A stretch of 61,928 nucleotides of DNA, counting the filler. It is 16 parts of 16 records of this genome, joined end to end, with 100 filler letters (N's around TTAATTAATTAA, not from the genome) between each part and the next. Parts side by side here need not be neighbours in the genome. Positions count along the whole stretch, not along the records: positions 25,708 to 28,026 come from SRR11831580_298; 15 more parts are not named here. The stretch is one strand, 5' to 3'. The notes below the pieces were generated by a model. It was not told the DNA's origin and ran no database searches. It worked only from the letters and a program-made list of their open reading frames with translations. The stretch's first letter is position 1. Every line of letters begins with the position of its first letter. Shown in pieces: positions 8,219 through 46,682 of the stretch. Both the position numbers and the translations under genes were made by a program.

Positions 8219-8328
8219 ATTCACGCCCTTCTCTTTTGACATTTCTTTTGCACTGGTAAACTAAATCACTTTTTTTGTCCCAGGCTCGCCTTGAGCCTGT
8301 TCTACCTTCCAACTGGAACCGTAACAAC

Positions 8329-9158
8329 ATGCGTACTAGCCAATACCTGCTCTCCACTCTCAAGGAGACACCTGCCGACGCCGAGGTGATCAGCCATCAG
8401 CTGATGCTGCGCGCCGGGATGATCCGCAAGCTGGCCTCCGGGTTATATACCTGGCTGCCGACCGGCGTGCGCGTTCTGAAAAAAGTCGAAAACATCGTGC
8501 GTGAAGAGATGAACAACGCCGGTGCGATCGAGGTGTCGATGCCGGTGGTTCAGCCAGCCGATTTGTGGCAAGAGAGTGGTCGTTGGGAACAGTACGGTCC
8601 GGAACTGCTGCGTTTTGTTGACCGTGGCGAGCGTCCGTTCGTACTCGGCCCAACTCATGAAGAAGTTATCACTGACCTGATTCGTAACGAGCTTAGCTCT
8701 TACAAACAGCTGCCGCTGAACTTCTATCAGATCCAGACCAAGTTCCGCGACGAAGTGCGTCCGCGTTTCGGCGTCATGCGTTCCCGCGAATTCCTGATGA
8801 AAGATGCTTACTCTTTCCATACTTCTCAGGAATCCCTGCAGGAAACCTACGATGCAATGTATGCGGCCTACAGCAAAATCTTCAGCCGCATGGGGCTGGA
8901 TTTCCGCGCCGTACAAGCCGACACCGGTTCTATCGGCGGCAGCGCCTCTCACGAATTCCAGGTGCTGGCGCAGAGCGGTGAAGACGATGTGGTCTTCTCC
9001 GACACCTCTGACTATGCAGCGAACATTGAACTGGCAGAAGCTATCGCGCCGAAAGAACCGCGCGCTGCTGCTACCCAGGAAATGACGCTGGTTGATACGC
9101 CGAACGCGAAAACCATCGCGGAACTGGTTGAACAGTTCAATCTGCCGATTGAGAAAAC
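8329..9158 (+). CDS. proS: Proline--tRNA ligase, N-terminal part
   Basis: [19 protein letters not shown]; class II motif 2 [17 protein letters not shown]. Confidence 0.97.
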
Positions 9159-9667: not shown

Positions 9668-11099
9668 GCCATTTCAGCGCCCGTTTTCGCTGGCAACCCG
9701 CCTGACCTTTTTTATCAGCCTGGCCACCATCGCGGCGTTTTTCGCCTTTGCATGGATCATGATCCACTCAGTAAAAGTTCATTTTGCCGAGCAGGATATT
9801 AATGATTTAAAAGAGATTAGCGCCACCCTTGAACGGGTACTAAATCACCCTGACGAAACGCAAGCCCGACGCTTAATGACGCTGGAAGATATCGTCAGTG
9901 GTTATTCCAATGTGTTGATTTCCCTGGCAGATAGTCAGGGTAAAACGGTGTATCACTCCCCCGGTGCGCCGGATATCCGCGAGTTTACGCGTGACGCCAT
10001 ACCCGATAAAGACGCTCAGGGTGGCGAGGTGTATCTCCTTTCCGGCCCGACGATGATGATGCCAGGCCACGGTCACGGGCATATGGAACACAGCAACTGG
10101 CGGATGATTAACTTGCCGGTTGGCCCGTTGGTGGACGGCAAACCGATTTATACGCTCTACATCGCGCTTTCGATCGATTTTCATCTTCATTACATAAATG
10201 ATTTGATGAATAAACTTATTATGACCGCATCGGTAATCAGCATCCTGATCGTCTTTATCGTACTGTTGGCGGTACATAAAGGTCACGCGCCGATCCGCAG
10301 CGTCAGCCGTCAAATCCAGAATATTACCTCGAAAGATCTCGACGTTCGCCTCGACCCGCAGACCGTGCCCATTGAGCTGGAACAGCTGGTACTGTCGTTC
10401 AACCATATGATCGAGCGTATTGAGGATGTCTTTACCCGCCAGTCCAATTTCTCAGCGGATATCGCTCACGAAATTCGCACACCAATTACGAATCTCATAA
10501 CGCAAACCGAAATCGCCCTCAGCCAGTCGCGCAGCCAGAAGGAGCTGGAAGATGTGCTCTACTCTAATCTCGAAGAGCTGACGCGAATGGCGAAAATGGT
10601 CAGCGATATGCTGTTTCTCGCTCAGGCCGATAACAACCAGCTAATCCCCGAAAAGAAAATGCTCAACCTGGCGGATGAAGTCGGCAAAGTGTTCGATTTT
10701 TTCGAGGCGTTAGCGGAAGATCGCGGCGTGGAGTTGCGGTTTGTTGGCGACAAGTGTCAGGTCGCGGGCGATCCGCTGATGCTGCGTCGGGCGCTAAGCA
10801 ACCTGCTTTCGAACGCCCTGCGTTATACGCCAACCGGAGAGACAATTGTAGTGCGCTGTCAGACGGTCGATCACCTGGTGCAAGTTATCGTCGAAAACCC
10901 CGGTACGCCCATTGCGCCCGAGCACTTACCGCGATTGTTTGACCGTTTCTATCGCGTTGACCCCTCCCGCCAGCGAAAAGGTGAAGGTAGCGGTATTGGC
11001 CTGGCGATAGTGAAATCGATTGTTGTCGCGCATAAAGGCACGGTTGCGGTAACGTCGGATGCGCGGGGGACAAGGTTTGTTATCACATTACCCGCTTAA
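9657..11099 (+). CDS. cusS: Copper/silver sensor histidine kinase
   Basis: 480 aa from [11 protein letters not shown]-box [10 protein letters not shown]; Met/His-rich periplasmic segment. Confidence 0.97.
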
Positions 11100-15934: not shown

Positions 15935-15969
15935 AGGCACGATAAGACGCGACAGCGTCGCATCGGGCA
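15935..15969. repeat. REP element (partial, at contig end)
   Basis: aggcacGATAAGACGCGACAGCGTCGCATCgggca matches the REP palindrome pattern. Confidence 0.8.
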
Positions 15970-16030
15970 TGGTTTGCCAGATACGTCATAGATCTAAATG
16001 CCACTGAATAACAGTTTAGTTGCCGTTCTT

Positions 16031-16056
16031 CCCGCCTGTCAGGGGCGGGTTTTTTT
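16031..16056. terminator. Hairpin terminator downstream of fre
   Basis: CCCGCC-tgtcagg-GGCGGG followed by TTTTTTT. Confidence 0.7.
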
Positions 16057-16061
16057 ATATC

Positions 16062-16763
16062 TCAGATAAATGCAAACGCATCGCCAAACAGGCGATCTTC
16101 CCGCGCATTACGCTCACTGCAAAACAGATCGCGGGCAATTTTCGCCATCTCAAAACGTCCGGCAATATAGATATCATGCTCTGCCAGCGTACCGTGATCC
16201 TGCAATACCGCCGTTAACACGGTGCCAGTACGCCCACGCCAGCCCGCTTCCGGTTGTTCAACCACCGGCACCACTTGCAGACCAGGATGCTTCAACGAAA
16301 GCGCCTCAAGCTCGCAGAGATCATACAGATGCTGCTCTTCACGCCCGCCCCAGTAAATGGTGATATCACGGTTTGGGTTACGCGCCAACGCTGTCAGCAA
16401 AATCGAGCGGGCATAAGAGAACCCGGTGCCGCCCGCAATCAAAATCATCGGACGCTCTTCATCATCGCGCAGCCACGCTTCTCCGTGGGGAATGTCGACC
16501 ACGATTTGATGATCTTTGAGGATGCGGTCCATGACTGCTTTCGCGTAAAGGTTGATTTCAGAAGCGCCAATATGCAGCTCGATAAACCCTTTTTCATCCG
16601 GCGTCGAAGCCATTGAGAACGGACGTTTGTCGCGCTCATCCATCACTACCATCAAATACTGACCAGCACGAAAAGAAAAGGCCGCGTCTGGCACGATGCG
16701 GACACGATATACGGTATCCGTGATAGCTTCTACCGAGGTCACTTTACAGCTTAAGGTTGTCAT
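16062..16763 (-). CDS. fre: NAD(P)H-flavin reductase
   Basis: 233 aa from [23 protein letters not shown] and IAGGTG motifs. Confidence 0.97.
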
Positions 16764-16808
16764 GCGCTTTCTCTGTCGGATCGATAAATAGGGCAAAACA
16801 AACGCGCA

Positions 16809-18302
16809 TCAGGCGCTTTTACCGTTGTTAAAAATAGCCAGTTCATCCCAGATGGCGTCAATATGCGCGACAACATCTGGATCTTTTTTGATGGGACGTC
16901 CCCATTCACGCTGGGTTTCCCCCGGCCATTTATTCGTGGCATCCAGCCCCATTTTTGAACCCAGCCCGGAGACAGGCGAGGCAAAATCCAGATAATCAAT
17001 AGGCGTATTTTCTACCAGAACAGTATCCCGCGCCGGGTCCATACGGGTGGTAATCGCCCAAATCACATCGTTCCAGTCGCGTGCGTTAACGTCATCATCG
17101 CAAACGATCACAAATTTAGTGTACATAAACTGGCGTAAGAACGACCAGACGCCCATCATGACGCGCTTCGCGTGTCCGGCGTACTGTTTTTTGATTGTCA
17201 CTACCGCCAGGCGATAAGAGCAGCCTTCCGGCGGCAGGTAAAAATCGACAATTTCCGGGAACTGTTTTTGCAGAATCGGCACAAACACTTCGTTCAGTGC
17301 GACACCCAGCACCGCGGGCTCATCTGGCGGACGCCCGGTATAGGTGGAATGGTAAATCGCATCTTCACGCTGGGTAATATGCGTCACGGTAAATACCGGG
17401 AAACTATCGACTTCATTATAGTAACCGGTGTGGTCGCCATACGGCCCTTCCGGCGCAGTTTCGCCTTGTTCGATATACCCTTCCAGCACAATCTCCGCAC
17501 TGGCGGGCACTTCAAGATCATTGGAGATACACTTCACCACTTCGGTCTTGGTGCCACGTAGCAATCCGGCAAACGCATACTCTGAAAGCGTATCCGGAAC
17601 GGGAGTGACTGCACCGAGAATCGTGGCGGGATCGGCACCCAGCGCCACAGAAACCGGGAAACGTTCGCCCGGATGCGCCGCACACCACTCCTGATAATCC
17701 AGCGCGCCGCCGCGATGCGACAGCCAGCGCATAATCAGTTTGTTTTTACCAATCAGCTGCTGGCGATAAATGCCCAGATTCTGCCGCTCTTTATGTGGGC
17801 CGCGCGTCACTGTCAGCCCCCAGGTAATCAGCGGCGCGGCATCTTCCGGCCAGCAGGTCATAATGGGAATGCGATTGAGATCGACGTCATCGCCAGAGAC
17901 GATTTTTTGTTGGCAGGGCGCACCACGCAGCCGCTTTGTCGGCATGTTCAATACTTGCTTAAACTGCGGCAGTTTATCAAACAGGTCGCGGAAACCTTTT
18001 GGCGGCTCCGGCTCTTTCAGAAACGCCAATAATTTACCAACTTCACGCAGCGCCGAAACATCTTCCTGCCCCATGCCCATCGCCACGCGCTTTGGCGTAC
18101 CGAACAGGTTGCACAGCACCGGCATTGAGTAGCCTTTAGGGTTTTCGAACAACAGCGCAGGCCCACCGGCACGCAAAGTGCGGTCAGCAATTTCAGTGAT
18201 TTCCAGATGCGGATCCACCGGGAGCGTGATACGTTTTAGCTCACCCTGCTGTTCAAGCAGCGTCAAGAAGTCGCGTAAATCGTTATATTTCATGGCGTCC
18301 AT
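16809..18302 (-). CDS. ubiD: 3-octaprenyl-4-hydroxybenzoate decarboxylase
   Basis: 497 aa, [11 protein letters not shown] motif. Confidence 0.97.
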
Positions 18303-18423
18303 TGTAGCCTCTTAATCTGCGCCCATTATACGGCGTTCATCTTTGCGATGCTGTAAATTTGTTAAATTAGCGTGAACTCTGACGGTATAACGCAAACCGG
18401 GGAATATAATTAACTTAGCGTAA

Positions 18424-19736
<1,313 letters not shown>

Positions 19737-19777
19737 CCTGTACTCCATATGACAACCGCCCTGACGGGCGGTTGAAT

Positions 19778-20554
19778 TTATTCTTCAGTTTTTTCGCTTT
19801 CTGCTTCAGCGTCGTTTTCCTCTTCCCGATTTCGCCCTTTACCAACGTAAAAGCGTGAGAAGAAGACACCGATTTCAAACAGACAGTACATCGGGATCGC
19901 CAACAGCGTTTGCGAGAAGACATCCGGCGGCGTCAGCAACATCCCGACAACGAATGCACCAACCAGCACATACGGGCGTTTTTTGCGTAAGTCTTCTGGC
20001 GAGGTAATCCCCATCCAGCACAGCAGCACAATTGCTACCGGCACTTCAAAGGAGACACCAAACGCCATAAACAGCGCCATAACGAAGCTTAAATAGCTGG
20101 CGATGTCGGTGGATACCTGCACCCCTTCCGGCGCGGTATTGGCAAGGAAGCCAAATGCCAGCGGAAAGACCACAAAGTAGGCGAATGCCATGCCGATATA
20201 AAACAGCAGAGAGCTGGAAACCAGCAGCGGCACCACCAGGCGACGTTCATGCTTATACAGCGCTGGGGCGATAAATGCCCACACCTGATAGAGAATCACC
20301 GGCGCTGACAGAATCAGCGACACCATAAAGGTCAGCTTGATCGGCGTAAAGAACGGCGAGGCCACGTCGGTGGCGATCATCGTTGAACCTTGCGGCAACT
20401 GCTTGATCAATGGCGCGGATACCAGGTGATAGATGTCATTGGCGAAATAGACCAGACACAGGAATATCACGATCACCGCGATAATGCAGTTCAGCAGACG
20501 CTTACGCAGCTCAATCAGATGCGTGATAAGCGGTTGAGTATCTTCTACAGACAT
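19778..20554 (-). CDS. tatC: Twin-arginine translocase subunit C
   Basis: 258 aa, [20 protein letters not shown]. Confidence 0.98.
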
Positions 20555-20556
20555 GT

Positions 20557-20582
20557 TTACGGTTTATCACTCGACGAAGGGA
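20557..20582 (-). CDS. tatB: TatB, last codons only
   Basis: ...PSSSDKP* immediately upstream of tatC. Confidence 0.8.
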
Positions 20583-25475: not shown

Positions 25476-25721
25476 GAAAAACCCGGCAGTAAATAATGTA
25501 TTGAATATTACGTGGTCCGTGCTCAGAATATCCGTTCAACCTTATTGTGACAATGGTTAATTGTGACATTGACCTGAATTACGCTTTCATAAAAACATAT
25601 TAACCAANNNNNNNNNNNNNNNNNNNNNNNNNNNNNNNNNNNNNNNNNNNNTTAATTAATTAANNNNNNNNNNNNNNNNNNNNNNNNNNNNNNNNNNNNN
25701 NNNNNNNCCACGCAAGTGTAC

Positions 25722-27103
25722 CTGAGAGACATCGATGATAAACAGCTGCTTGTTGTAGTACAGCACGTTATACTCGGAAAGATCCGCGTGCACAAGCTTG
25801 GCTTCCTGGTACATCTTGCGCATCAGTTTCACCATCTGCAGGTACATTTCGCGCATTTCTGACTCGTTCAGACCAGCATCCTTCAGTTTGGGAGCAGCCC
25901 TACACAGCGTGATAATAACACAAACAGCAGCACGGTGAGTGGGAGCTGAATCCACAGCGGAAACAAACAAACAAGGCAACAACAGATCCGGAGCACTCAC
26001 TGCACGTGCATATCACGCCAGGATGCAGCCCTTTCACATGTTGGAGATGCTATGTTTTCCACACGAACACGCCACTGCATAACAACGCGCGCACGCACAC
26101 ACGCACACGCGCACGCACACACGCACCATCCATCCTTTCCCAGGAACTCCATGACGAGCACGTGCATATGCAGACACACCACCTGCGGGGTCGGCAGGCC
26201 ACTCAGCTTCATTCTGCACATGCGAATGCGAGAGATGCGTCAGCAAATACGGATACACACGCTGTGCGACCTCGGTATCTCTGTATTATGGAGAAACGAA
26301 GAACAGTGCGTGCATGCATCATAAACATTGATCGTTCACATAACAAGTATGGTTGAAACTCAAAGGAAGACAAACAAAGCACATTCGGCACGAAGTAGGT
26401 GCGAGTATGGATGCCGCACAAACGTGAGTTCCACATGACCTGCGTCATATCATCGTATGAAAGAGCATACCGGTTCAAGTTGCGTGTCTCCTTCTCCGCC
26501 CACATGCGCACCATTTTGCGCGGGTTGGATTTGCAGTAGCCGCGACGAAACCGAAAGTCACCCGAAACGTAGCGATCACGATCCTGCAAACATCATTCAC
26601 AAACAACACAATTAGAAAGCAGAACCAGACTAAGAAGAAGAACAGCACGAAAGCAACTACGACGAGCAACAACCATATCGGACACCTCTGCTCCTTCTAC
26701 GCAACGATCGGTAGATGCAAATACCATACCTTGAACACAAGGATGGATGTTTTGTAGACTTTAACTGCGAGTTCTTTGCCGCCCGGTCCAAACGCATGAT
26801 ACACATTGGCCTGGCTTCGGTGAGCGAGTGATTTCACAACAAAATGTGCGCACCTCTTTACCCGTAGAAACACAGCCATGAATCTCGGACAACACTTCTC
26901 GATTGAGCATCTTGAACAAGATCATTCGAGTGCGTGGGTCAAGAACCTGATCTTGCGTGGCGCGATCTGCTCTGTCATGTGACCGTCTGCATAGAGTATT
27001 AACACAAAGTAGCAGCACGGCAAGGACCGAACCTTGCATCTTCGATGCTTTGTTCGACAGCCCGCAATTTAATGGAGATACTGGAAGGTAGATCATCCGC
27101 CAT
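25722..27103 (-). CDS. RIO1: Eukaryotic RIO1 atypical Ser/Thr kinase/ATPase, spliced and 3'-truncated: exons 27103-27033, 26986-26854, 26810-26730, 26583-26471, 26213-26127, 25899-25722
   Basis: The spliced 663 nt give 221 codons: ...[21 protein letters not shown]...STGKE|ANVYHA...[20 protein letters not shown]...WAEKETRNL...HVLVMEFLG...[10 protein letters not shown]...IIDVSQ. All introns are GT..AG and phases match; the first exon is least certain. Confidence 0.92.
26085..26126. repeat. Alternating purine-pyrimidine (CA/CG)n microsatellite in a RIO1 intron
   Basis: 42 bp acgcgcgcacgcacacacgcacacgcgcacgcacacacgcac, beginning at the 5' splice site on the minus strand. Confidence 0.9.
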
Positions 27104-28126
27104 TATTTCGCACAGGCACCTTTCCACAGATCACAATTTACTGAGTCTCATGAGCGCTGATGGAGTTTTCTGTGTGGGCATCGATCAAACTTTCCATTCT
27201 TTTCGAGTTTACAAGTTAGTAACAGTAGTTATATACTTTACTTTACCTGATCGATCTTTCGACACGCCACCGATCCGCGATACCTGACCCACCCACAAAA
27301 AAGACCATGAAGCAATGGAGCCATGACATTACCTACCACATTGCCCAGAACCATGGAGTTGGCACCACGCGAGAGCAAGAGGACTGCTGGCACAGACGTG
27401 TCTTCGCGACTCCGCGTATGTCAAACAATGAAGCTGCCCGGTAGCAGGTTGTATTCGATCCACTGGCGCATGTAACACAATGCTGATGACGATGAGAGGA
27501 AACCATAGACGTGCTACCATGAATCCACGCAACACGGTTCAGCACAGTTGGCATCCAGTCTCTACATATACGAAACACAATATACCCTGAAGTTCGCGGA
27601 CTTCAGCCCGACGAAACAGCCAATATTTGTGTGTCGTCCTGTTCAGCTATCACTTGTCACTATACCGTCTAATCGCCCACTACTCTTAACGACCAAGTAC
27701 ATTACGTTGCGCTGACCCACTGGTCACCCTATGTACCTAAATCAAAAGCCTGACTTCTCTAAAAACAGCTAAGCGGCGATATGTGGTCCAGTGCGGAGCA
27801 GCGTAGATAACTAGAGAGCGGCACATGTCCCCCTTTCTTCTCTTCGCCCATGCCATATGTCAATTACCCGCTTGGCAGACAAACTGCTAAACCTTGAAAA
27901 TTGTCATGTAGGTGGCACATTTCACAGTAGTGTTGTGTTTGTTCGCTCCTGATAGCTGCCTGGCGGATAAACTAATGCCACACACGTTGATTTGCGAAAA
28001 CAACAACAAGGACTACGACAACAAAANNNNNNNNNNNNNNNNNNNNNNNNNNNNNNNNNNNNNNNNNNNNTTAATTAATTAANNNNNNNNNNNNNNNNNN
28101 NNNNNNNNNNNNNNNNNNNNNNNNNN

Positions 28127-31026
28127 GAATATGAACGGTATCGATAACCTGATGTATATGTCCTCCACCAGCGATTCCGCCGGTAGCGTGACAATTACCC
28201 TTACCTTCCAGTCCGGGACCGATCCTGATATCGCGCAAGTGCAGGTGCAGAACAAACTCCAGCTCGCCACGCCGTTGCTGCCGCAGGAGGTTCAGCAGCA
28301 GGGGATCAGTGTTGAAAAGTCCAGTAGCAGCTATTTGATGGTGGCGGGCTTTGTCTCTGATAACCCAGGCACCACACAGGACGATATCTCGGACTATGTG
28401 GCCTCTAACGTTAAAGATACGCTTAGCCGTCTGAATGGCGTCGGTGACGTACAGCTTTTCGGCGCACAGTATGCGATGCGTATCTGGCTGGATGCCGATC
28501 TGCTAAACAAATATAAACTGACACCGGTTGATGTGATTAACCAGTTGAAGGTACAGAACGATCAGATCGCTGCCGGACAGTTGGGCGGAACGCCAGCGTT
28601 ACCAGGGCAACAATTGAACGCCTCGATTATTGCTCAGACGCGGTTTAAAAATCCGGAAGAATTCGGCAAAGTGACCCTGCGCGTAAACAGTGACGGCTCG
28701 GTGGTACGCCTGAAAGATGTCGCACGGGTTGAACTTGGCGGTGAAAACTATAACGTTATCGCTCGTATCAACGGAAAACCGGCGGCGGGCCTGGGGATTA
28801 AGCTGGCAACCGGCGCGAATGCTCTCGATACCGCGAAAGCCATTAAGGCAAAACTGGCGGAATTACAGCCATTCTTCCCGCAGGGAATGAAGGTTCTCTA
28901 CCCTTATGACACCACGCCATTCGTCCAGCTTTCTATTCACGAAGTGGTAAAAACGCTGTTCGAAGCCATTATGCTGGTGTTCCTGGTGATGTATCTGTTC
29001 TTGCAGAATATGCGAGCAACGCTGATCCCCACCATTGCGGTACCCGTGGTGTTGTTAGGGACGTTTGCCATCCTCGCCGCTTTTGGTTACTCCATCAACA
29101 CACTAACGATGTTCGGGATGGTGCTTGCCATCGGGCTGCTCGTCGATGATGCGATAGTGGTGGTGGAGAACGTCGAGCGCGTGATGATGGAGGATAAGCT
29201 CCCGCCAAAAGAAGCGACGGAAAAATCGATGTCGCAAATTCAGGGCGCACTGGTGGGTATCGCGATGGTGCTGTCAGCGGTATTTATTCCGATGGCATTC
29301 TTCGGCGGTTCTACTGGGGCAATTTATCGCCAGTTCTCTATCACCATCGTTTCGGCAATGGCGCTTTCTGTTCTGGTGGCATTGATTCTTACCCCTGCGT
29401 TATGTGCAACGCTGCTTAAACCCGTCTCTGCTGAGCATCACGAAAATAAGGGCGGTTTCTTCGGTTGGTTTAATACCACCTTCGATCATAGCGTTAACCA
29501 CTACACCAACAGCGTCGGCAAAATCCTCGGATCCACAGGACGATATTTACTGATCTATGCGCTGATTGTTGCAGGAATGGTGGTGTTGTTTTTACGTCTT
29601 CCGTCTTCCTTCTTACCTGAAGAGGATCAGGGTGTCTTTCTGACCATGATTCAGTTACCCGCTGGCGCGACGCAAGAGCGGACGCAAAAAGTGTTGGATC
29701 AAGTTACGGATTACTATCTGAAGAACGAGAAAGCGAACGTTGAAAGTGTCTTTACGGTTAACGGCTTTAGCTTCAGCGGCCAGGCACAAAACGCCGGTAT
29801 GGCCTTCGTCAGTCTGAAACCGTGGGAAGAGCGTAATGGTGACGAAAACAGTGCGGAAGCGGTAATCCATCGTGCCAAAATGGAATTGGGCAAGATCCGC
29901 GACGGTTTTGTCATTCCATTCAATATGCCAGCCATTGTTGAACTGGGCACGGCAACGGGTTTCGACTTTGAGTTAATTGATCAGGCTGGGCTGGGTCACG
30001 ATGCCCTAACCCAGGCCCGTAACCAGTTGCTTGGTATGGCGGCGCAACATCCTGCCAGCTTAGTCAGCGTGCGCCCTAATGGCCTGGAAGACACCGCGCA
30101 GTTTAAACTGGAAGTTGACCAGGAAAAGGCGCAGGCATTAGGTGTTTCACTTTCTGACATCAATCAGACCATTTCAACGGCGCTGGGTGGGACTTACGTT
30201 AACGACTTCATCGACCGTGGCCGCGTGAAAAAGTTGTATGTTCAGGCGGATGCCAAATTCCGTATGCTGCCAGAAGATGTCGATAAACTTTATGTCCGCA
30301 GCGCCAACGGCGAAATGGTGCCATTCTCGGCCTTTACCACTTCACATTGGGTGTATGGCTCTCCGCGACTGGAACGCTACAACGGTCTGCCGTCAATGGA
30401 GATTCAGGGGGAAGCCGCGCCAGGAACCAGTTCCGGCGATGCCATGGCGTTGATGGAAAACCTTGCGTCAAAATTACCTGCGGGCATTGGTTATGACTGG
30501 ACGGGTATGTCGTATCAGGAACGCTTATCGGGAAACCAGGCTCCCGCTCTGGTAGCATTCCTTGTGTTCGTTTCTGTGCCTTGCTGCACTCTATGAAAGC
30601 TGGTCAATTCCTGTCTCGGTTATGTTGGTAGTGCCGTTAGGGATTGTCGGCGTGCTGCTGGCGGCGACACTCTTTAATCAAAAAAATGACGTCTACTTTA
30701 TGGTGGGCTTGCTAACGACAATTGGCTTGTCGGCCAAAAACGCTATTTTGATCGTTGAGTTCGCTAAAGATCTCATGGAGAAAGAGGGTAAAGGTGTTGT
30801 TGAAGCGACACTGATGGCAGTACGTATGCGTCTGCGTCCTATCCTGATGACCTCTCTCGCCTTTATTCTCGGCGTATTACCGCTAGCTATCAGTAACGGT
30901 GCCGGCAGTGGCGCGCAGAACGCTGTGGGTATCGGGGTAATGGGAGGAATGGTCTCTGCAACGTTGCTGGCAATCTTCTTCGTACCGGTGTTCTTTGTGG
31001 TGATCCGCCGTTGCTTTAAAGGATAA
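28127..31026 (+). CDS. acrF: RND multidrug efflux transporter AcrF (5' truncated; cluster of indel miscalls at ~30555-30578)
   Basis: [18 protein letters not shown] motif; ORFs 28131-30596 and 30562-31026 join across the degraded VAISFVVVFLCLAAL segment; ends IRRCFKG. Confidence 0.94.
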
Positions 31027-31035
31027 ATCAGAAAC

Positions 31036-31066
31036 ATAAAGGCGCTTTCGGGTGCCTTTATTATTT
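31036..31066 (+). terminator. Terminator after acrF
   Basis: ATAAAGGCGC-tttcgg-GTGCCTTTAT hairpin. Confidence 0.65.
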
Positions 31067-31278
31067 CCAGTGAAACCCATAAAAATTAATAAGATATTCT
31101 TCTGCTCACTCTTTAAAAGCTTTCTATAGTTCCCGCTCCCTTCACTATTTTTACAATTCACATAATTTGTCATTATTCATTCCGCAAGATTTATAACCTC
31201 CGGTGATAAAATGGCATTCAGCTCGTTAATAAGAGAGTTAACTTATTAAGCGTTAGCGTTTATTACTGAGGTAACACC

Positions 31279-31500
31279 ATGAAAAGATTAATTCCTGTGG
31301 CATTGCTCACCGCATTGCTGGCGGGCTGTGCTCACGATTCGCCCTGCGTTCCGGTTTATGACGATCAGGGTCGTCTGGTTCACACCAATACCTGTATGAA
31401 AGGCACGACTCAGGATAACTGGGAAACGGCTGGGGCTATTGCCGGCGGGGCAGCTGCTGTTGCTGGCCTGACGATGGGGATCATCGCTCTATCGAAATAA
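31279..31500 (+). CDS. yhdV: Small lipoprotein YhdV
   Basis: 73 aa, lipobox LAGC. Confidence 0.93.
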   Translation: MKRLIPVALLTALLAGCAHDSPCVPVYDDQGRLVHTNTCMKGTTQDNWETAGAIAGGAAAVAGLTMGIIALSK

Positions 31501-31930
31501 CTGAACAGGGCGCGGAGTTCCGCGCTCTTTTTAACGATACAGTATCTCTCCATAAGATAAAATATTGCTATATTCTGCTGGGTAATTCCCTGCTGATTTA
31601 GCATGTTACATCGCGTTATTTCGCTGCTTTCGAAATAACGCATCAATTTAATTTTCACACTTCCCACCAGAAATATACTCACGCTAACAATCATTATTCT
31701 GCTTAGTAAAACACGCGTAAATATTTTGCGCCAAAATGTGGCGCATGTTTCATTTTCGCACCATTGCGGGGCGCTGTTTTTATTATTTCCTGTCTACACT
31801 CAGCTTATTGCGACGCGAAATCGTGCGCAAAAGCTGGCACTACTTTTGCTTATAAGAGGATGGCCACAGACAGGTAAAAGACGTTTCCCAAACGTCCTAT
31901 AACGATAATTTTCGCCTCACAGGAAGCATT

Positions 31931-32955
31931 ATGAAAAAGATGATGATAGCCACACTGGCTGCCGCCAGCGTGCTGCTTGCCGTTGCAAATCAGGCGCTGC
32001 TGGCGCGACGCTTGATGCCGTTCAGAAAAAAGGTTTTGTGCAATGCGGGATCAGTGATGGATTACCTGGGTTCTCTTATGCCGATGCTGACGGTAAGTTT
32101 TCAGGTATTGATGTTGATATTTGTCGTGGTGTTGCCGCTGCTGTATTTGGTGACGACACGAAAGTGAAATATACCCCGCTCACTGCAAAAGAACGCTTCA
32201 CCGCTTTACAGTCAGGGGAGGTGGATTTGCTCTCCCGTAATACGACCTGGACTTCATCTCGCGATGCCGGGATGGGAATGGCATTTACCGGCGTCACTTA
32301 TTACGACGGCATTGGCTTCCTGACGCACGATAAAGCGGGGCTAAAAAGCGCGAAAGAACTGGATGGCGCTACCGTCTGTATTCAGGCGGGTACTGATACC
32401 GAACTCAACGTCGCCGACTACTTCAAGGCAAACAATATGAAGTACACACCGGTGACTTTCGATCGCTCTGACGAATCAGCGAAGGCACTGGAATCTGGTC
32501 GCTGCGATACGCTGGCCTCGGATCAATCACAACTGTATGCCCTGCGCATCAAATTAAGCAACCCAGCTGAATGGATTGTCTTACCGGAAGTTATCTCAAA
32601 AGAACCGCTTGGTCCGGTAGTTCGTCGTGGCGATGATGAATGGTTCTCGATTGTACGCTGGACGCTTTTCGCCATGCTGAATGCTGAAGAGATGGGCATC
32701 AATTCCCAGAACGTCGATGAAAAAGCGGCTAATCCAGCAACGCCTGATATGGCACATCTGCTGGGTAAAGAAGGCGATTACGGCAAGGATCTGAAGCTGG
32801 ATAATAAATGGGCCTATAACATCATCAAACAGGTGGGTAACTACTCGGAAATTTTTGAGCGTAACGTAGGTTCAGAAAGCCCGCTGAAAATTAAACGTGG
32901 GCAAAATAATCTCTGGAATAACGGCGGTATTCAGTACGCACCGCCCGTGCGTTAA
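31931..32955 (+). pseudogene. yhdW: Amino-acid ABC transporter periplasmic binding protein, frameshifted near the end of the signal peptide (~31997)
   Basis: MKKMMIATLAAASVLLAVANQA, then a frame change to ...GATLDAVQKKGFVQCGISDG...YAPPVR; non-homopolymer 1-nt deletion, which I recall as the K-12 allele. Confidence 0.85.
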
Positions 32956-33022
32956 GTCGGTGTGAGGTAACGAGCGTCGCTACGGCGGCGCTCTCTTCAG
33001 CGTTATGCTTTCCGAGGTTTCT

Positions 33023-34204
33023 ATGTCTCATCGCCGCTCAACCGTTAAAGGCTCACTCTCTTTTGCCAACCCTACGGTTCGCGCCTGGTTATTCCAGATC
33101 CTTGCCGTTGTTGCTGTTGTCGGCATTGTTGGTTGGTTATTTCACAACACTGTAACGAATCTCAATAATCGTGGCATTACTTCAGGTTTTGCCTTTCTGG
33201 ATCGCGGCGCTGGCTTCGGTATTGTCCAGCATTTGATCGATTACCAGCAGGGCGACACCTACGGACGCGTTTTTATTGTCGGCTTACTCAATACGCTACT
33301 GGTTTCTGCATTGTGTATTGTGTTCGCTTCTGTTTTGGGCTTCTTTATCGGTCTGGCGAGACTTTCGGATAACTGGCTGCTACGAAAGCTTTCCACAATT
33401 TATATTGAGATCTTCCGTAATATTCCCCCGCTGCTGCAAATCTTCTTCTGGTACTTTGCCGTGTTGCGCAATTTGCCCGGACCACGCCAGGCTGTGAGCG
33501 CGTTTGATCTGGCCTTTTTGAGCAATCGTGGGCTTTATATTCCGTCACCGCAGCTGGGAGACGGATTTATTGCGTTTATCCTGGCTGTTGTTATGGCTAT
33601 AGTCCTTTCTGTTGGGCTATTCCGCTTTAATAAAACATACCAGATAAAGACCGGACAACTGCGCCGCACCTGGCCGATCGCCGCAGTGTTGATCATTGGT
33701 TTGCCTTTACTGGCGCAATGGCTTTTTGGCGCAGCACTACACTGGGATGTCCCAGCCCTACGAGGCTTTAACTTCCGCGGCGGGATGGTTTTAATTCCTG
33801 AACTGGCAGCCTTAACGCTGGCACTTTCGGTTTATACATCTGCATTTATCGCCGAGATTATCCGCGCTGGGATCCAGGCAGTGCCTTATGGTCAACATGA
33901 AGCGGCTCGGTCACTGGGATTACCCAACCCGGTTACGCTACGCCAGGTCATTATTCCCCAGGCATTGCGGGTGATTATTCCACCGTTAACCAGCCAGTAT
34001 CTCAACATCGTCAAAAACTCCTCTCTTGCCGCCGCTATTGGCTATCCCGATATGGTTTCGCTGTTTGCCGGCACCGTGCTGAATCAGACGGGGCAAGCCA
34101 TCGAGACGATAGCCATGACCATGTCGGTCTATCTGATTATCAGCCTGACTATCTCGCTGCTGATGAATATCTATAACCGCCGCATCGCGATCGTTGAACG
34201 CTAA
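33023..34204 (+). CDS. yhdX: Amino-acid ABC transporter permease
   Basis: 393 aa, EIFRNIPPLLQ, EAARSLGL. Confidence 0.94.
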   Translation: MSHRRSTVKGSLSFANPTVRAWLFQILAVVAVVGIVGWLFHNTVTNLNNRGITSGFAFLDRGAGFGIVQHLIDYQQGDTYGRVFIVGLLNTLLVSALCIVFASVLGFFIGLARLSDNWLLRKLSTIYIEIFRNIPPLLQIFFWYFAVLRNLPGPRQAVSAFDLAFLSNRGLYIPSPQLGDGFIAFILAVVMAIVLSVGLFRFNKTYQIKTGQLRRTWPIAAVLIIGLPLLAQWLFGAALHWDVPALRGFNFRGGMVLIPELAALTLALSVYTSAFIAEIIRAGIQAVPYGQHEAARSLGLPNPVTLRQVIIPQALRVIIPPLTSQYLNIVKNSSLAAAIGYPDMVSLFAGTVLNQTGQAIETIAMTMSVYLIISLTISLLMNIYNRRIAIVER

Positions 34205-34213
34205 GGAGTCATG

Positions 34214-35317
34214 ATGACAAAAGTATTGCTGTCTCATCCCCCGCGCCCGGCGAGCCATAACTCAAGCCGCGCGATGGTGTGGGTGCGAAAAAATCTGTTC
34301 TCCAGCTGGAGCAATAGCCTGCTGACTATTGGCTGCATATGGTTGATGTGGGAACTGATCCCACCGTTGCTGAACTGGGCATTTTTGCAGGCTAACTGGG
34401 TTGGCTCAACGCGTGCCGACTGCACAAAAGCCGGTGCCTGTTGGGTCTTCATCCACGAACGATTTGGTCAGTTTATGTATGGGCTTTACCCACACGACCA
34501 ACGCTGGCGAATTAACCTCGCATTACTGATTGGGCTTGTGTCGATCGCACCAATGTTCTGGAAAATACTCCCGCATCGCGGTCGCTATATTGCGGCCTGG
34601 GCGGTGATTTACCCACTGATTGTCTGGTGGCTGATGTATGGCGGTTTTTTTGCTCTTGAGCGGGTTGAAACCCGGCAATGGGGCGGGCTGACGCTAACTT
34701 TAATTATTGCATCAGTTGGGATTGCGGGGGCGCTACCGTGGGGGATCTTACTGGCGTTAGGTCGCCGCTCCCATATGCCGATTGTGCGTATCTTATCGGT
34801 CATTTTTATCGAATTCTGGCGCGGCGTGCCGCTGATTACCGTTCTGTTTATGTCTTCGGTCATGCTGCCGTTGTTTATGGCAGAAGGCACCAGTATCGAC
34901 AAATTGATCCGCGCGCTGGTTGGCGTGATCCTGTTTCAGTCAGCATATGTTGCGGAAGTCGTGCGAGGTGGATTACAGGCGCTGCCTAAAGGGCAATATG
35001 AAGCGGCAGAGTCGCTGGCGTTGGGTTACTGGAAAACTCAGGGGCTGGTTATTCTGCCACAGGCGTTGAAGCTGGTAATTCCTGGGCTGGTAAATACCAT
35101 CATCGCACTCTTCAAAGATACCAGCCTGGTGATCATTATCGGGTTGTTCGATCTTTTCAGTAGCGTTCAGCAGGCAACCGTTGATCCCGCCTGGTTGGGT
35201 ATGTCGACGGAAGGGTATGTTTTCGCCGCGCTGATCTACTGGATCTTCTGTTTCAGCATGTCGCGCTATAGCCAGTATCTGGAAAAACGTTTTAACACCG
35301 GGCGTACACCGCATTGA
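34214..35317 (+). CDS. yhdY: Amino-acid ABC transporter permease
   Basis: ~367 aa, [17 protein letters not shown]. Confidence 0.94.
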
Positions 35318-35324
35318 GGACACT

Positions 35325-35962
35325 ATGAGCCAAATTTTACTGCAACCTGCTAACGCGATGATTACGCTGGAAAACGTCAATAAATGGTATGGACAATTCC
35401 ATGTTTTGAAAAATATAAATTTAACCGTGCAACCGGGAGAACGGATCGTTCTGTGTGGCCCTTCAGGTTCCGGTAAATCGACAACCATTCGTTGTATTAA
35501 TCATCTGGAAGAACATCAACAGGGACGGATCGTGGTAGATGGCATCGAACTTAATGAAGATATCCGCAATATTGAGCGCGTCAGGCAGGAAGTGGGAATG
35601 GTCTTTCAGCATTTCAATCTCTTCCCTCATCTGACCGTTTTACAGAACTGTACCCTGGCACCGATTTGGGTACGCAAGATGCCTAAGAAAGAGGCTGAAG
35701 ATCTGGCGGTGCATTACCTAGAGCGGGTGAGAATTGCCGAACATGCGCATAAGTTTCCCGGACAGATTTCAGGTGGTCAGCAGCAACGCGTTGCCATTGC
35801 GCGTTCGCTGTGTATGAAGCCGAAAATTATGTTGTTTGATGAGCCAACGTCGGCGCTCGATCCTGAGATGGTGAAAGAGGTGCTGGATACGATGATTGGG
35901 CTGGCGCAGTCGGGTATGACAATGTTGTGTGTAACACATGAGATGGGGTTTTGCACGAACCG
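35325..35962 (+). CDS. yhdZ: Amino-acid ABC transporter ATPase (3' truncated)
   Basis: [23 protein letters not shown]. Confidence 0.94.
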
Positions 35963-42943: not shown

Positions 42944-43099
42944 NNNNNNNNNNNNNNNNNNNNNNNNNNNNNNNNNNNNNNNNNNNNTTAATTAATTAAN
43001 NNNNNNNNNNNNNNNNNNNNNNNNNNNNNNNNNNNNNNNNNNNAAATAATATTTATTATTGTTAATAAAAAGGGGCGAAATATCGCCCCAATTCTAAGA

Positions 43100-43455
43100 T
43101 TAATTTGAACCAAACTTCGGATCGTTTCCGTAACGATTGCTGCCAGAAGTACCTTCTGTGCAGAAAAAAACCAGAAGCACGAGCCAGCCAATAAACGGAA
43201 CAAAAAGAGCAAGGCCCAGGCACCTGAACGGTCGGTATCGTGTAAGCGACGGATAGCAAGCGCAAGGACGGGAAGGAAGGTTGCCAGCAAATAAAGCATA
43301 GACAGATATGGAAGCTCCAGACCTAAAATCAATTGAATGACATTGATAATAGCGCCGACGATGGCGTTAATCAGAGTAAACATCCAGTACTCTTTACGAC
43401 GTGCGCGACCAGAGAAACCAACATAATTTTTTAATACGGACAAATACCACTGCAT
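43100..43455 (-). CDS. yhaI: DUF805 inner-membrane protein (1-nt miscall in the run at ~43202-43206)
   Basis: MQWYLSVLKNYVGFSGRARRKEYW...RRLHDTDRS; the shifted frame continues VPFIGWLVLLVFFCTEGTSGSNRYGNDPKFGSN*. Confidence 0.9.
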
Positions 43456-43695
43456 AAAAACATCCCTTTAATTAAAAGTGACGAAAGTCTATTCCGGGTA
43501 TTGTGTAAATGCTATTCGTATCTTTCTTTTTCGGATGTTATAAAGGTTTTGATATTTAAGATAAATACATGGTTATTTTTATAGGTAATTTATATAACGA
43601 CATTGAAATATTTTAAATAAACATTAGTAAATTATTCATTCATCAACATAATGATAAAAGCCGGATGAGTCAGACATCCGGCGAGCAGATTTGTT

Positions 43696-44061
43696 TTAAG
43701 GTTCCAGTTTTGGATCTGGTCCAAAGCGGTTTTCGCCTGGCGTACCCGCCTGGCAGTTAAAGACGATGATAATAAGCCAGCCGATAAACGGGATTAAGAA
43801 TAGCAGTGCCCACCACGCCGAGCGGTCGGTGTCGTGCAGGCGGCGGAACTGAACCGCCCACCACGGTAAAAACACCAGAATACCGTAGATTGTCGTCAGG
43901 ATGCCTTCGCCACCAGCGCGTTGCCAGCCTAACATTTTATCCAGCAGCCCCAGCACGAACGTAAAGATGATGTTGACCAGAATAAACATCCAGTACTCTT
44001 TGCGCCGCGCACGACCCCGGAAACCGACATAATTTTTTAGTACTTTCAGATACCAGTCCAT
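43696..44061 (-). CDS. yhaH: DUF805 inner-membrane protein
   Basis: 121 aa, MDWYLKVLKNYVGFRGRARRKEYW...RRLHDTDRS. Confidence 0.94.
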   Translation of the reverse strand: MDWYLKVLKNYVGFRGRARRKEYWMFILVNIIFTFVLGLLDKMLGWQRAGGEGILTTIYGILVFLPWWAVQFRRLHDTDRSAWWALLFLIPFIGWLIIIVFNCQAGTPGENRFGPDPKLEP

Positions 44062-44182
44062 TTTTGCCTCAATTTTGCTCAATCACTTGTTTTTAAAGCA
44101 GCAAATTAAGAATAGACGTGAATGAAATGGCAGTAAATATTCGTTCAAGGAATTAATAAAGTGCCGTGAAGGCGCGCTAAGA

Positions 44183-44310
44183 CTGATGACAAGCGCAAAA
44201 TCGCCAGATGCGCTACGCTTATCTGGTCTGCGCGGGTTATGCAATCTATTGAATGTACAATGTTTTGTATGTCAGATAAGGCGTTCATGCCACATCCGAC
44301 ATGAACAACA
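44183..44310. repeat. Degenerate BIME: two REPs flanking an IHF-like L motif
   Basis: gccagatgcgctacgcttatctggtc ... tgcaatctattgaat ... gtcagataaggcgttcatgccacatccgaca. Confidence 0.75.
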
Positions 44311-44354
44311 TGCACTTAGCTAATTATCAGAGGCACCTCGTAAGGTGCCTTTTT

Positions 44355-45341
44355 TTAACCGAAGCGAACATCTCGTCCATGCGGTTCATCGAGATCCTGC
44401 CACGGACCAATTGAAATAATCCCCGTAGGGTTGATGGTCTTATGGCTGCGGAAGTAATGATTACGGATATGATCGAAATTGACTGTTTCGGCGATCCCCG
44501 GCATCTGGTAGATATCGCGCAGAAAACCGTACAGATTCAGGTAATCGCTGATGCGGTGCTTATCACACTTGAAGTGGGTCACATACACCGGATCAAAACG
44601 CACCAGCGTAGTCCACAGGCGAATATCGGCTTCGGTTAGCTGGTTGCCGGTCAGGTAACGATGCTGGCCTAAAATCTGCTCCAGTCGTGCCAGCGATTCA
44701 AACACTTTCGCCACCGCCTCGTCGTAAGCTTCCTGGCTGGTGGCAAAACCAGCTTTATACACGCCGTTGTTAACGGTGTCATAAATCCAGCCGTTAAGTT
44801 CGTCAATTTTTGTTTGCAGGGCTGGAGGGTAGTAATCACCCGCTTTCGCGCCCAGCGCATCAAACGCGGTATTGAACATGCGGATGATTTCTGCTGATTC
44901 GTTGCTGACGATGGTGTGGTTCTTTTTGTCCCACAGCACGGGAACAGTAACTCGTCCGCTGTAGTGTGGATCGGCGTGGAGATAAAGCTGATACAGAAAT
45001 TCATTTTGATAGAGCGTGTCTCCGGTTGCTCCCGGAAAACTGTCATCAAAGGTCCAACCGTTTTCCAGCATCAGCGGGTTCACTACGGAAACGGAAATAA
45101 ACGGTTCCAGTCCTTTGAGTTTGCGCATGATCAGCGTGCGGTGCGCCCACGGGCAGGCGAGTGAAACATAGAGATGATAACGATCTTTCTCTGCGATAAA
45201 ACCGCCTGTGCCAGTGGGGCCAGGAGCGCCATCGGCAGTGAGCCAGTTACGAAATGCGGAAGCTGAACGTTGAAATTTACCGCCGGTAGATTTGGTATCG
45301 TACCAGGTGTCATGCCAGACGCCGTCAATCAGTTGACCCAT
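44355..45341 (-). CDS. yqjG: Glutathionyl-hydroquinone reductase
   Basis: 328 aa from MGQLIDGVW; CPWAHR active site. Confidence 0.96.
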   Translation of the reverse strand: MGQLIDGVWHDTWYDTKSTGGKFQRSASAFRNWLTADGAPGPTGTGGFIAEKDRYHLYVSLACPWAHRTLIMRKLKGLEPFISVSVVNPLMLENGWTFDDSFPGATGDTLYQNEFLYQLYLHADPHYSGRVTVPVLWDKKNHTIVSNESAEIIRMFNTAFDALGAKAGDYYPPALQTKIDELNGWIYDTVNNGVYKAGFATSQEAYDEAVAKVFESLARLEQILGQHRYLTGNQLTEADIRLWTTLVRFDPVYVTHFKCDKHRISDYLNLYGFLRDIYQMPGIAETVNFDHIRNHYFRSHKTINPTGIISIGPWQDLDEPHGRDVRFG

Positions 45342-45409
45342 TTTTCTCTCCTCCAATAGCAAAAACGAGGAGCTTCCTCCTCGTTTTTATCGTTAAGTAT
45401 AGCGCGTGC

Positions 45410-46680: not shown

Positions 46681-46682
46681 AA

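What the first reader, a model, noticed from the sequence alone, without database searches (positions are those of the whole stretch)
25722..27103. Intron-containing eukaryotic RIO1 kinase gene hidden among E. coli contigs
Seen: the ORF track shows only fragments here, but minus-strand splicing at canonical GT..AG sites gives one open 221-codon frame. The introns are 27032-26987 (46 nt), 26853-26811 (43), 26729-26584 (146), 26470-26214 (257) and 26126-25900 (227), and a sixth starts at 25721. Split codons are restored correctly (AG|A Arg, CG|A Arg, TG|G Trp), and the STGKEA motif forms only across a splice junction. Established: STGKEA is the Rio1-subfamily P-loop (Rio2 GxGKES, Rio3 STGKES), [10 protein letters not shown] is the catalytic loop and IIDVSQ the metal-binding loop; Rio1 acts in 40S ribosome maturation. 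Inference: this contig comes from an intron-rich eukaryote, not from E. coli.
Basis: partly seen in the sequence, partly recalled or inferred. Interest (0 to 1): 0.85.

Follow-up and report, generated by a model that had tools for sequence, protein, structure and literature searches.

The report
Eukaryotic RIO1 gene fragment contaminating E. coli
A 2.3-kb contig in this E. coli K-12 assembly is foreign DNA: the front part of an intron-split RIO1 ribosome-maturation kinase gene from an unidentified eukaryote, so it is an assembly-contamination matter and not new bacterial biology.

Summary
The window is 16 contigs joined by N/TTAATTAATTAA spacers. The contig at 25708-28026 carries six exons on the minus strand. 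They join at five GT..AG introns into 663 nt (221 codons) with no stop.

Exons 3-6 hit consecutive parts of Pfam RIO1, profile positions 1-150 of 187. The spliced product is 60-70% identical to eukaryotic RIO1 proteins, with no gaps at the junctions. It is about 39-44% identical to archaeal Rio1 and 42% to a RIO3. In a tree it falls inside a 100/100 eukaryotic clade.

Introns 2 and 5 lie where other eukaryotic RIO1 genes have introns. The proposed sixth intron has a parallel in one related fragment.

The contig has no match in 5,426 E. coli genomes or 72,556 plasmids. Neighbouring contigs are 99.9-100% E. coli K-12.

The source eukaryote is unidentified. The best identities are 73% over the last exon and 87% over 38 residues. 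No RNA data could be reached.

Verdict: an ordinary contaminant or foreign contig carrying a new RIO1 orthologue. Interest is low.

The parts
25708..28026 (.). Whole foreign contig (2,319 nt), bounded by artificial 100-nt spacers at 25608-25707 and 28027-28126
   Evidence: Spacer map. It is the only one of 16 contigs without bacterial ORF density: 0.53 against 0.70-1.00. No match in E. coli genomes, the nearest held genome, or plasmids.
27104..28026 (-). Upstream region (promoter/5'UTR or intergenic). No coding signal found
   Evidence: 9 ORFs scanned against Pfam; none reached E<0.1. No Rfam hit here. No significant tblastn HSP from 21 RIO1 proteins (HSPs printed for 7 of the 21). An in-frame stop lies 9 codons upstream of the ATG.
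27033..27103 (-). Exon 1. The ATG at 27103 sits in context GAAATAATGGCGG. It encodes the segment that precedes the RIO domain
   Evidence: No Pfam hit. In 31 of 170 RIO1/RIO3 hits the alignment to the spliced product begins at residue 8 or earlier, so it runs through this exon. That this is the true first exon is inferred.
26987..27032 (-). Intron 1: 46 nt, phase 2, GTTCGG...ATGCAG
   Evidence: Its exact borders are the least constrained of the five, because the region is variable in homologues.
26854..26986 (-). Exon 2: N-terminal helix region and P-loop STGKE
   Evidence: No Pfam hit, but strong tblastn and alignment support, e.g. 65% identity to P0006 residues 184-240.
26811..26853 (-). Intron 2: 43 nt, phase 0, GTGCGC...AGCCAG
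   Evidence: The same position (STGKE|A) carries clean GT..AG introns in 6 of the 13 metagenomic eukaryote loci printed.
26730..26810 (-). Exon 3: the A of STGKEA and the strand carrying the conserved Lys (VKVYK)
   Evidence: Pfam RIO1 profile 1-26, E 4.5e-4, 20.3 bits, just under the 22-bit cutoff. Alignment.
26584..26729 (-). Intron 3: 146 nt, phase 0, GTATGG...TTGCAG
26471..26583 (-). Exon 4: flexible-loop region
   Evidence: Pfam RIO1 profile 28-63, E 2.3e-9, 37.6 bits. 82% identity to P0006.
26214..26470 (-). Intron 4: 257 nt, phase 2 (CG|A), GTATGC...GTGCAG
26127..26213 (-). Exon 5: hinge region
   Evidence: Pfam RIO1 profile 66-92, E 4.9e-4, 20.2 bits. tblastn.
25900..26126 (-). Intron 5: 227 nt, phase 2 (TG|G Trp), GTGCGT...GTGTAG. 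A GT/GC-rich microsatellite lies at its 5' end (26085-26126)
   Evidence: The same split-Trp position is shared by 7 of the 13 loci printed.
25722..25899 (-). Exon 6: catalytic loop [10 protein letters not shown] and metal-binding loop IIDVSQ
   Evidence: Pfam RIO1 profile 94-150, E 2.1e-19, 70.3 bits. Human RIOK1 (4otp, 6g5i) E 8e-18; query Asp39 and Asp56 align with human residues 324 and 341.
25708..25721 (-). Probable start of intron 6 (GTACAC...), cut off by the contig end
   Evidence: Homology ends at IIDVSQ. An intron-free relative continues with SVEHDHP (P0048). A related genomic fragment (P0362, 33/38 identical) also leaves homology right after IIDVSQ, with a GTN codon. Only 14 nt are present, so this is inferred.

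Best explanation
The contig 25708-28026 is a piece of nuclear DNA from an intron-rich eukaryote. It carries about 920 nt of upstream sequence and the first six exons of the RIO1 (RIOK1-type) atypical protein kinase/ATPase gene on the minus strand. It ends inside or at the start of a sixth intron.

The encoded 221 residues cover the pre-domain helix, the Rio1-type P-loop (STGKEA), the ATP-binding Lys strand, the flexible loop, the hinge, the catalytic loop and the metal-binding loop. That is Pfam RIO1 profile positions 1-150 of 187. The rest of the C-lobe and the C-terminal extension lie off the contig.

In its own organism the gene would be spliced by the spliceosome. Its product would act in late cytoplasmic maturation of the 40S ribosomal subunit; this role is established knowledge for Rio1, recalled and not tested here.

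The contig is not part of the E. coli genome. It sits in this file because non-E. coli DNA was co-assembled or binned with a fragmented E. coli K-12 assembly. Possible routes are sample, reagent or run contamination, a eukaryote culture or library that also held K-12, or a cloned insert. The route and the name of the eukaryote are unresolved.
For: Shown:
- The splice model is exact and the frame stays open.
- Four exon peptides give colinear Pfam RIO1 hits.
- Independent tblastn HSPs from RIO1 proteins fall on exons 2-6 in the predicted order and frames.
- The spliced product aligns without gaps across the junctions at 60-70% identity to RIO1 of Balamuthia, Chlorella/Micractinium, Amoebidium, Fabomonas, Aplanochytrium, Lagenidium, Chenopodium, Cavenderia, Pseudonaja, Lotharella and fungi.
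- Archaeal Rio1 reaches only 39-44%. A RIO3 reaches 42%.
- PDB matches rank human RIOK1 first, then RIOK3, then archaeal Rio1. No Rio2 is listed.
- In the ML tree the eukaryotic clade and the archaeal clade each have 100/100 support, and the window's product sits in the eukaryotic one.
- Intron positions 2 and 5 are shared with other eukaryotic RIO1 genes. The break after IIDVSQ is shared with P0362.
- There is no DNA match in 5,426 E. coli genomes, the nearest held genome, or 72,556 plasmids. The viral collection holds no relative.
- This is the only contig of the 16 without bacterial ORF density.
- Neighbouring contigs are 99.9-100% E. coli K-12.

Inferred: the function of the product, the route of entry into the assembly, and that exon 1 is the first exon.
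Against: - No transcript evidence for any junction could be obtained.
- Exons 1 and 2 have no Pfam hit of their own; their support comes from alignments only.
- Most RIO1 proteins have 100-250 residues before the domain, while this model has 24. A further upstream exon cannot be excluded, although none was detectable and two relatives (P0087, P0111) start at or within two residues of the same point.
- The gene is truncated, so its integrity as a whole is unknown.
- The assembly shows small indel errors elsewhere, so single-base accuracy of this contig is not guaranteed.
- No whole assembly is held. Read depth, mate links and other foreign contigs could not be examined.
Confidence: 0.93

Rival explanations
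1. The eukaryotic fragment is a cloned genomic insert (plasmid, fosmid or BAC library clone) carried by a K-12 cloning host, and not free contaminating DNA.
For: The E. coli contigs are K-12. For contig 50158-54776, 52 of the 60 rows listed share the top score (8525 bits). These include DH5alpha, DH1, XL1-Blue, XL10-Gold, TOP10 and S17-1. Standard MG1655 (NZ_CP032667.1) and C600 score 8519.
Against: No vector or plasmid sequence was found anywhere on the contig (blastn against 72,556 plasmids). The top-score group also holds one record labelled MG1655 and a wild-bird isolate, so the lineage signal amounts to one mismatch. The contig ends are plain eukaryote-like sequence.
Confidence: 0.2
2. 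The sequence is truly integrated in the E. coli chromosome, as a horizontal transfer of an intron-containing eukaryotic gene.
For: Only that the contig was filed with an E. coli assembly.
Against: No E. coli sequence lies at either contig end. None of 5,426 complete E. coli genomes holds it. The gene has intact spliceosomal introns that a bacterium cannot remove, and it is truncated at the contig end.
Confidence: 0.01
3. It is a degraded prokaryotic (archaeal or bacterial) Rio kinase gene broken by insertions and frameshifts, and not an intron-split gene.
For: Archaeal Rio1 genes do match the exon peptides, at up to 60% over the 59-aa exon 6 alone.
Against: Over the whole product, archaeal identity is 39-44%, against 60-70% for eukaryotes. 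The tree separates them at 100/100. All five interruptions are bounded by GT..AG and restore exact colinearity. Two sit at intron positions conserved in other eukaryotes.
Confidence: 0.01
4. It is a RIO3 or other RIO paralogue, or a non-functional duplicate, and not the organism's working RIO1.
For: RIO3 shares the domain. The RIO3 in the panel (Tabanus, P0015) itself shows STGKEA, so the P-loop motif alone does not discriminate. The C-terminal third of the gene is unseen.
Against: Identity is 60-70% to RIO1 proteins and 42% to the named RIO3. The PDB score is 66 bits for RIOK1 and 59 for RIOK3 over exon 6. The 221 codons hold no stop or frameshift, and the catalytic and metal-binding Asp residues are intact.
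Confidence: 0.04

Closest known systems
Human RIOK1 (PDB 4otp; 6g5i and related entries)
   Same: Best solved-structure match for exon 6 (E 8e-18). The catalytic-loop and metal-binding-loop residues align one to one: query Asp39 and Asp56 with human 324 and 341. The P-loop is the same STGKEA type.
   Different: A vertebrate RIO1 in the panel (Pseudonaja, P0029) is only 62% identical over 220 aligned residues. Human RIOK1 has a long N-terminal extension, whereas this model has 24 residues before the conserved part. The window's gene is truncated after the metal-binding loop.
RIO1 of Balamuthia mandrillaris (P0001) and of Chlorella ohadii / Micractinium conductrix (P0004, P0006)
   Same: Highest named identities: 64.8% over 219 aa (Balamuthia) and 69.5-69.8% over 197-199 aa (the algae), with no gaps at the splice junctions.
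   Different: No lineage is clearly closest. The tree leaves all deep eukaryotic branches unresolved: 14 of 26 inner branches are open.
Unnamed RIO1 P0048 (497 aa) and unnamed fragment P0362 (84 aa)
   Same: P0048 is the only supported sister in the tree (96/87; 71% over 197 columns). P0362 is 33/38 identical and breaks off after IIDVSQ at the same point.
   Different: Neither carries a name or taxon. Both are still clearly other species.
Archaeal Rio1 (Archaeoglobus fulgidus, PDB 1zp9)
   Same: Same RIO domain and same catalytic residues.
   Different: E 1.7e-9 against 8e-18 for human RIOK1. Archaeal loci are 39-44% identical and uninterrupted by introns. They form a separate 100/100 clade.

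Membership tests
RIO kinase family, Rio1 subfamily | RIO domain (Pfam PF01163) | tested here: met
   Exons 3-6 hit profile positions 1-26, 28-63, 66-92 and 94-150 of 187. Exons 4 and 6 are above the 22-bit cutoff on their own; exons 3 and 5 score 20.3 and 20.2 bits. The last 37 profile positions lie off the contig.
RIO kinase family, Rio1 subfamily | Rio1-type phosphate-binding loop STGKEA (Rio2 has GxGKES, Rio3 has STGKES) | tested here: met
   STGKE|A is formed across junction 2. The motif rule is taken from passages in PMC2564912 and PMC5562798. Caveat: the RIO3 in my panel also reads STGKEA.
RIO kinase family, Rio1 subfamily | Catalytic loop with Asp and Asn (HxDLSExN), and metal-binding Asp (IDxxQ) | tested here: met
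   [10 protein letters not shown] and IIDVSQ in exon 6 align residue for residue with human RIOK1. The roles of these residues are recalled and supported in general terms by PMC2564912.
RIO kinase family, Rio1 subfamily | Closer to Rio1 than to Rio2, Rio3 or archaeal Rio | tested here: met
   60-70% to RIO1, 42% to the named RIO3, 39-44% to archaeal Rio1. No Rio2 chain appears among the 6 PDB matches. No winged-helix or other Pfam family is found in exons 1-2.
RIO kinase family, Rio1 subfamily | Complete C-lobe and C-terminal extension; ATPase/kinase activity; role in pre-40S maturation | not testable with these tools
   The contig ends 14 nt after exon 6. Function is inferred from family membership.
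Eukaryotic nuclear gene with spliceosomal introns | GT..AG boundaries whose removal restores one open frame colinear with homologues | tested here: met
   5 of 5 introns. Alignments are gap-free at the junctions.
Eukaryotic nuclear gene with spliceosomal introns | Intron positions shared with orthologues in other eukaryotes | tested here: met
   Intron 2 position in 6 of 13 printed loci and intron 5 position in 7 of 13. The break after IIDVSQ is shared with P0362. Introns 1, 3 and 4 have no counterpart among the loci printed.
Eukaryotic nuclear gene with spliceosomal introns | Spliced transcripts observed | not testable with these tools
   No sequencing run could be listed.
Escherichia coli genomic or plasmid DNA | Nucleotide similarity to E. 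coli genomes or plasmids; bacterial coding density | tested here: not met
   No match. ORF coverage is 0.53, against 0.70-1.00 for the other 15 contigs.

The most novel reading that the evidence does not exclude
The contig may be one of very few public traces of a eukaryote with no sequenced close relative.

- An exhaustive HMMER search of 1.84 billion cluster representatives gave at most 73% identity over the last exon.
- The finer 90%-clustered collection gave at most 71% among longer proteins.
- That collection also held one anonymous 84-aa fragment with 87% identity over 38 residues.
- The tree gives no supergroup placement.

If so, the source sample (an E. coli K-12-containing culture or library) holds an unsampled protist or invertebrate lineage worth recovering.
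Probability: 0.2. Interest if true: 0.35.

Novelty: new member of a known kind. Interest (0 to 1): 0.15.

Why it matters
The main value is quality control. A eukaryotic contig is filed under an E. coli genome. It could be annotated as E. coli 'hypothetical proteins', seed false claims of eukaryote-to-bacterium gene transfer, or pollute reference databases.

Biologically it adds one more RIO1 orthologue with a well-supported exon-intron structure. Two, and probably three, of its intron positions are shared with other eukaryotes. The source organism is not closely represented in the protein collections searched. The finding does not bear on E. coli biology.

Tried and rejected
1. RNA or DNA run look-up for the contig: none was listed. 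Read laying was therefore not used, and the junctions have no transcript test.

2. Whole-assembly inspection: no genome is held for this window. Other foreign contigs, read depth and rRNA markers could not be sought.

4. A wrong turn, later corrected.
- Blast of the window against the nearest held genome G001 showed 7 contigs at 100% and 8 contigs at only 75-91% (window 60001-61928 was not searched).
- I provisionally read this as a second enterobacterial species in a mixed bin (note).
- That reading is rejected. A GluQRS ORF from one such contig is 97-98% identical to E. coli clusters.
- Two of the 8 contigs, tested directly, are 100.0% identical over 100% of their length to K-12 strains.
- The low values are an artefact of the held copy of G001. 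The other 6 contigs were not retested.

5. Naming the eukaryote.
- Protein searches, metagenome and prokaryote-genome locus scans and a 29-row ML tree give no lineage.
- Named hits from six or more supergroups sit at a flat 59-70%.
- For the tree I used 22 of the 170 proteins then held. These were the named ones plus the best-scoring unnamed ones. I added 6 of the 80 loci from the genome-contig scan.

6. Upstream 920 nt: 9 ORFs gave no Pfam family (best E 0.27), and Rfam gave no match in that region. The one Rfam match on the contig lies inside exon 6: a trypanosomatid snoRNA model at 22.5 bits against a 40-bit gathering score, E 0.16. I take it as chance.

7. Viral origin: 16 pattern matches in the viral contig collection, none confirmed by tblastn.

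Full report
**What the window is.** The 61,928-base window is a chain of 16 contigs, each separated by a 100-nt artificial spacer made of N runs around TTAATTAATTAA. The finding lies on one short contig, 25708-28026 (2,319 nt).

**Check of the observation.**
- The six exons are 27103-27033, 26986-26854, 26810-26730, 26583-26471, 26213-26127 and 25899-25722. They add up to 663 nt and translate into 221 codons without a stop.
- The five introns are 46, 43, 146, 257 and 227 nt long. All begin with GT and end with AG.
- None has a length divisible by three. Retaining any one of them shifts the frame and meets a stop.
- A GT follows the last codon at 25721, with only 14 nt left before the spacer.
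- The stop-to-stop ORF list shows only fragments.
One nuance: STGKE lies in exon 2, and only the last residue of STGKEA is supplied by exon 3.

**Is it more than chance?**
- I gave each exon peptide to Pfam by reference. Exons 3, 4, 5 and 6 hit the RIO1 domain (PF01163) at profile positions 1-26, 28-63, 66-92 and 94-150 of 187.
- These stretches are consecutive and non-overlapping, and they run in the order of the exons. The E-values are 4.5e-4, 2.3e-9, 4.9e-4 and 2.1e-19.
- Exons 1 and 2 gave no Pfam family.
- As an independent test, I ran tblastn of 21 full-length or partial RIO proteins against the contig. HSPs fell on exons 2-6 in the predicted frames and order, and nothing significant fell upstream (HSPs printed for 7 of the 21).
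- The spliced product, built inside a script from coordinates, matched all 21 proteins. The best was Balamuthia RIO1: 64.8% over 219 residues, E 4e-102. The alignment shows no gap at any junction.
- Exon 1 has no Pfam hit. Even so, in 31 of 170 hits the alignment to the spliced product begins at residue 8 or earlier and so runs through exon 1. There it pairs with the weakly conserved LPxx(V/I)xxxL(R/K)-like segment that precedes the RIO domain in RIO1 and RIO3 proteins.

**Eukaryotic or prokaryotic?**
Over the whole product, eukaryotic RIO1 proteins score 250-309 bits at 57-70% identity.
- Archaeal loci score 150-170 bits at 39-44%.
- One locus labelled as an actinobacterial MAG scored 52%. 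In the tree it nests among ascomycete fungi, so it is not a true prokaryotic Rio.
- Among solved structures, exon 6 matches 6 distinct sequences. Human RIOK1 is best (E 8e-18), followed by RIOK3 (2e-15) and archaeal Rio1 (1.7e-9). No Rio2 is listed.
- A maximum-likelihood tree of 29 rows puts the product inside a eukaryotic clade with 100/100 support, separate from a 100/100 archaeal clade.
- The catalytic-loop Asp and the metal-binding Asp align with human residues 324 and 341.
However, the one named RIO3 in my panel also reads STGKEA. I therefore base the Rio1 assignment mainly on overall similarity: 60-70% to RIO1 against 42% to that RIO3.

**Intron positions.**
- Metagenomic eukaryote loci fetched with exon 6 break into separate HSPs at the same places as this gene.
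- Of the 13 loci printed, 6 have an intervening GT..AG sequence of 49-79 nt exactly between STGKE and A. This matches intron 2, phase 0.
- Seven of the 13 resume after a ...AG|G at the split Trp codon, which matches intron 5.
- For the proposed sixth intron, the only exon-sized relative in the 90%-clustered collection is P0362 (33/38 identical). It also leaves RIO1 homology directly after IIDVSQ, with a GTN codon.
- An intron-free relative, P0048, continues with the conserved SVEHDHP instead.
- Shared intron positions are hard to explain unless this is a genuine spliceosomal-intron gene.
- Five introns in 663 nt of coding sequence supports the description 'intron-rich' for this gene.

**Not E. 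coli.**
- The contig has no megablast match in 20,395 records of 5,426 complete E. coli genomes.
- It has no match in the nearest held genome, and no blastn match in 72,556 plasmids, so no vector sequence either.
- It is the only contig of the 16 without bacterial ORF density: 0.53 against 0.70-1.00.
- The contigs on either side are 100% and 99.9% identical to K-12.
- In all, 9 of the other 15 contigs were shown to be K-12-identical.
- I briefly misread low identities of 8 contigs against the held genome G001 as a second species. Direct tests of two of them gave 100.0% to K-12, and a protein from one is an E. coli GluQRS. That idea is withdrawn, and the low values are an artefact of the stored G001. 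The other 6 contigs were not retested.
- For one contig, 52 of the 60 rows listed share the top score. Most are cloning or laboratory derivatives (DH5alpha, DH1, XL1-Blue, TOP10, S17-1). Standard MG1655 and C600 are one step lower. This is a one-mismatch hint toward a cloning-type K-12 and no more than that.

**Which eukaryote?** This is unresolved.
- The exhaustive HMMER search of 1.84 billion representatives found 1,506 hits at E<=1e-3, but none above 73% identity over exon 6.
- The word-based search of longer proteins topped out at 71%.
- The metagenome scan gave 63% at best.
- The viral collection held no relative.
- Named relatives come from Amoebozoa, Ichthyosporea, Ancyromonadida, Labyrinthulea, Oomycota, Rhizaria, green algae, plants, animals and fungi. 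They all sit at 59-70%.
- The tree resolves only a sister pairing with an unnamed protein, P0048 (96/87). 14 of 26 inner branches are open.

**Remainder of the contig.**
- The 920 nt upstream of the ATG show no Pfam family in 9 ORFs and no RNA family.
- An in-frame stop lies 9 codons upstream of the ATG, whose context is GAAATAATGGCGG.
- Whether an additional upstream exon exists cannot be excluded.
- A GT/GC-rich microsatellite lies at the 5' end of intron 5.

**Verdict.** How it works in its own organism follows from family membership. From recall, and not tested here, Rio1 is an atypical kinase/ATPase of late 40S subunit maturation. How it came to be in this file is an assembly matter: contamination, co-culture or a cloned insert. 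These routes cannot be told apart without the reads. It is a new orthologue of a well-known family. For E. coli biology it is an artefact. Interest is low, except as a database-hygiene flag and a possible pointer to an unsampled eukaryote.

Noticed in passing
window 28127-35962 (acrF-yhdX-yhdY-yhdZ contig): The contig matches K-12 at 99.9%, with 7,836 query bases spanning 7,840 record bases. This implies about four single-base indels. The acrF frame (open from 28083) ends early at 30596. It suggests an indel-prone sequencing or assembly method; contig 50158-54776 also spans 4,620 record bases with 4,619 query bases.
   Followed up: partly
L082 (contig CBDCLF010000001.1, 1.45 Mb, labelled MAG: Friedmanniella sp.), match at 10001-10189: This contig carries an uninterrupted RIO1 gene 52% identical to the window's product. 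In the tree it nests among ascomycete fungi (97/54 within 99/91). Either this large contig is fungal DNA in a bacterial MAG, or it is an unusual eukaryote-like Rio kinase in an actinobacterium.
   Followed up: partly
window contigs 2176-4928, 5029-9158, 15935-20582, 43044-47710, 47811-50057, 50158-54776, 54877-57301, 57402-60000 against G001: the genome search reported only 75-91% identity to the nearest held genome. Yet two of these contigs are 100.0% identical to K-12 in the complete-genome collection (against 43, 44). Identity values against G001 are therefore unreliable here.
   Followed up: yes
window 50158-54776: 52 of the 60 rows listed share the top score (8525 bits). They are mostly cloning or laboratory K-12 derivatives (DH5alpha, DH1, XL1-Blue, XL10-Gold, TOP10, S17-1, ST18). 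MG1655 (NZ_CP032667.1) and C600 score 8519. This is a one-mismatch hint that the E. coli is a cloning-type strain.
   Followed up: partly
window 26085-26126 (minus strand, 5' end of intron 5): An imperfect GT/GC-rich microsatellite (units CACGCACA / CGCACA on the plus strand; TRF scores 41-78). The non-homologous tail of the related fragment P0362 also looks Cys/Val/Ala-rich, as a translated repeat of this kind would.
   Followed up: no
P0015 (UniRef name: RIO3 of Tabanus bromius), alignment: This RIO3-labelled protein carries STGKEA rather than the STGKES quoted for Rio3 in PMC5562798. The P-loop motif alone is therefore not a safe Rio1/Rio3 discriminator.
   Followed up: no
window 25811-25857 (minus strand, inside exon 6): A sub-threshold Rfam match to a trypanosomatid H/ACA snoRNA model (RF01537): 22.5 bits against a 40-bit gathering score, E 0.16. 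I take it as chance.
   Followed up: no
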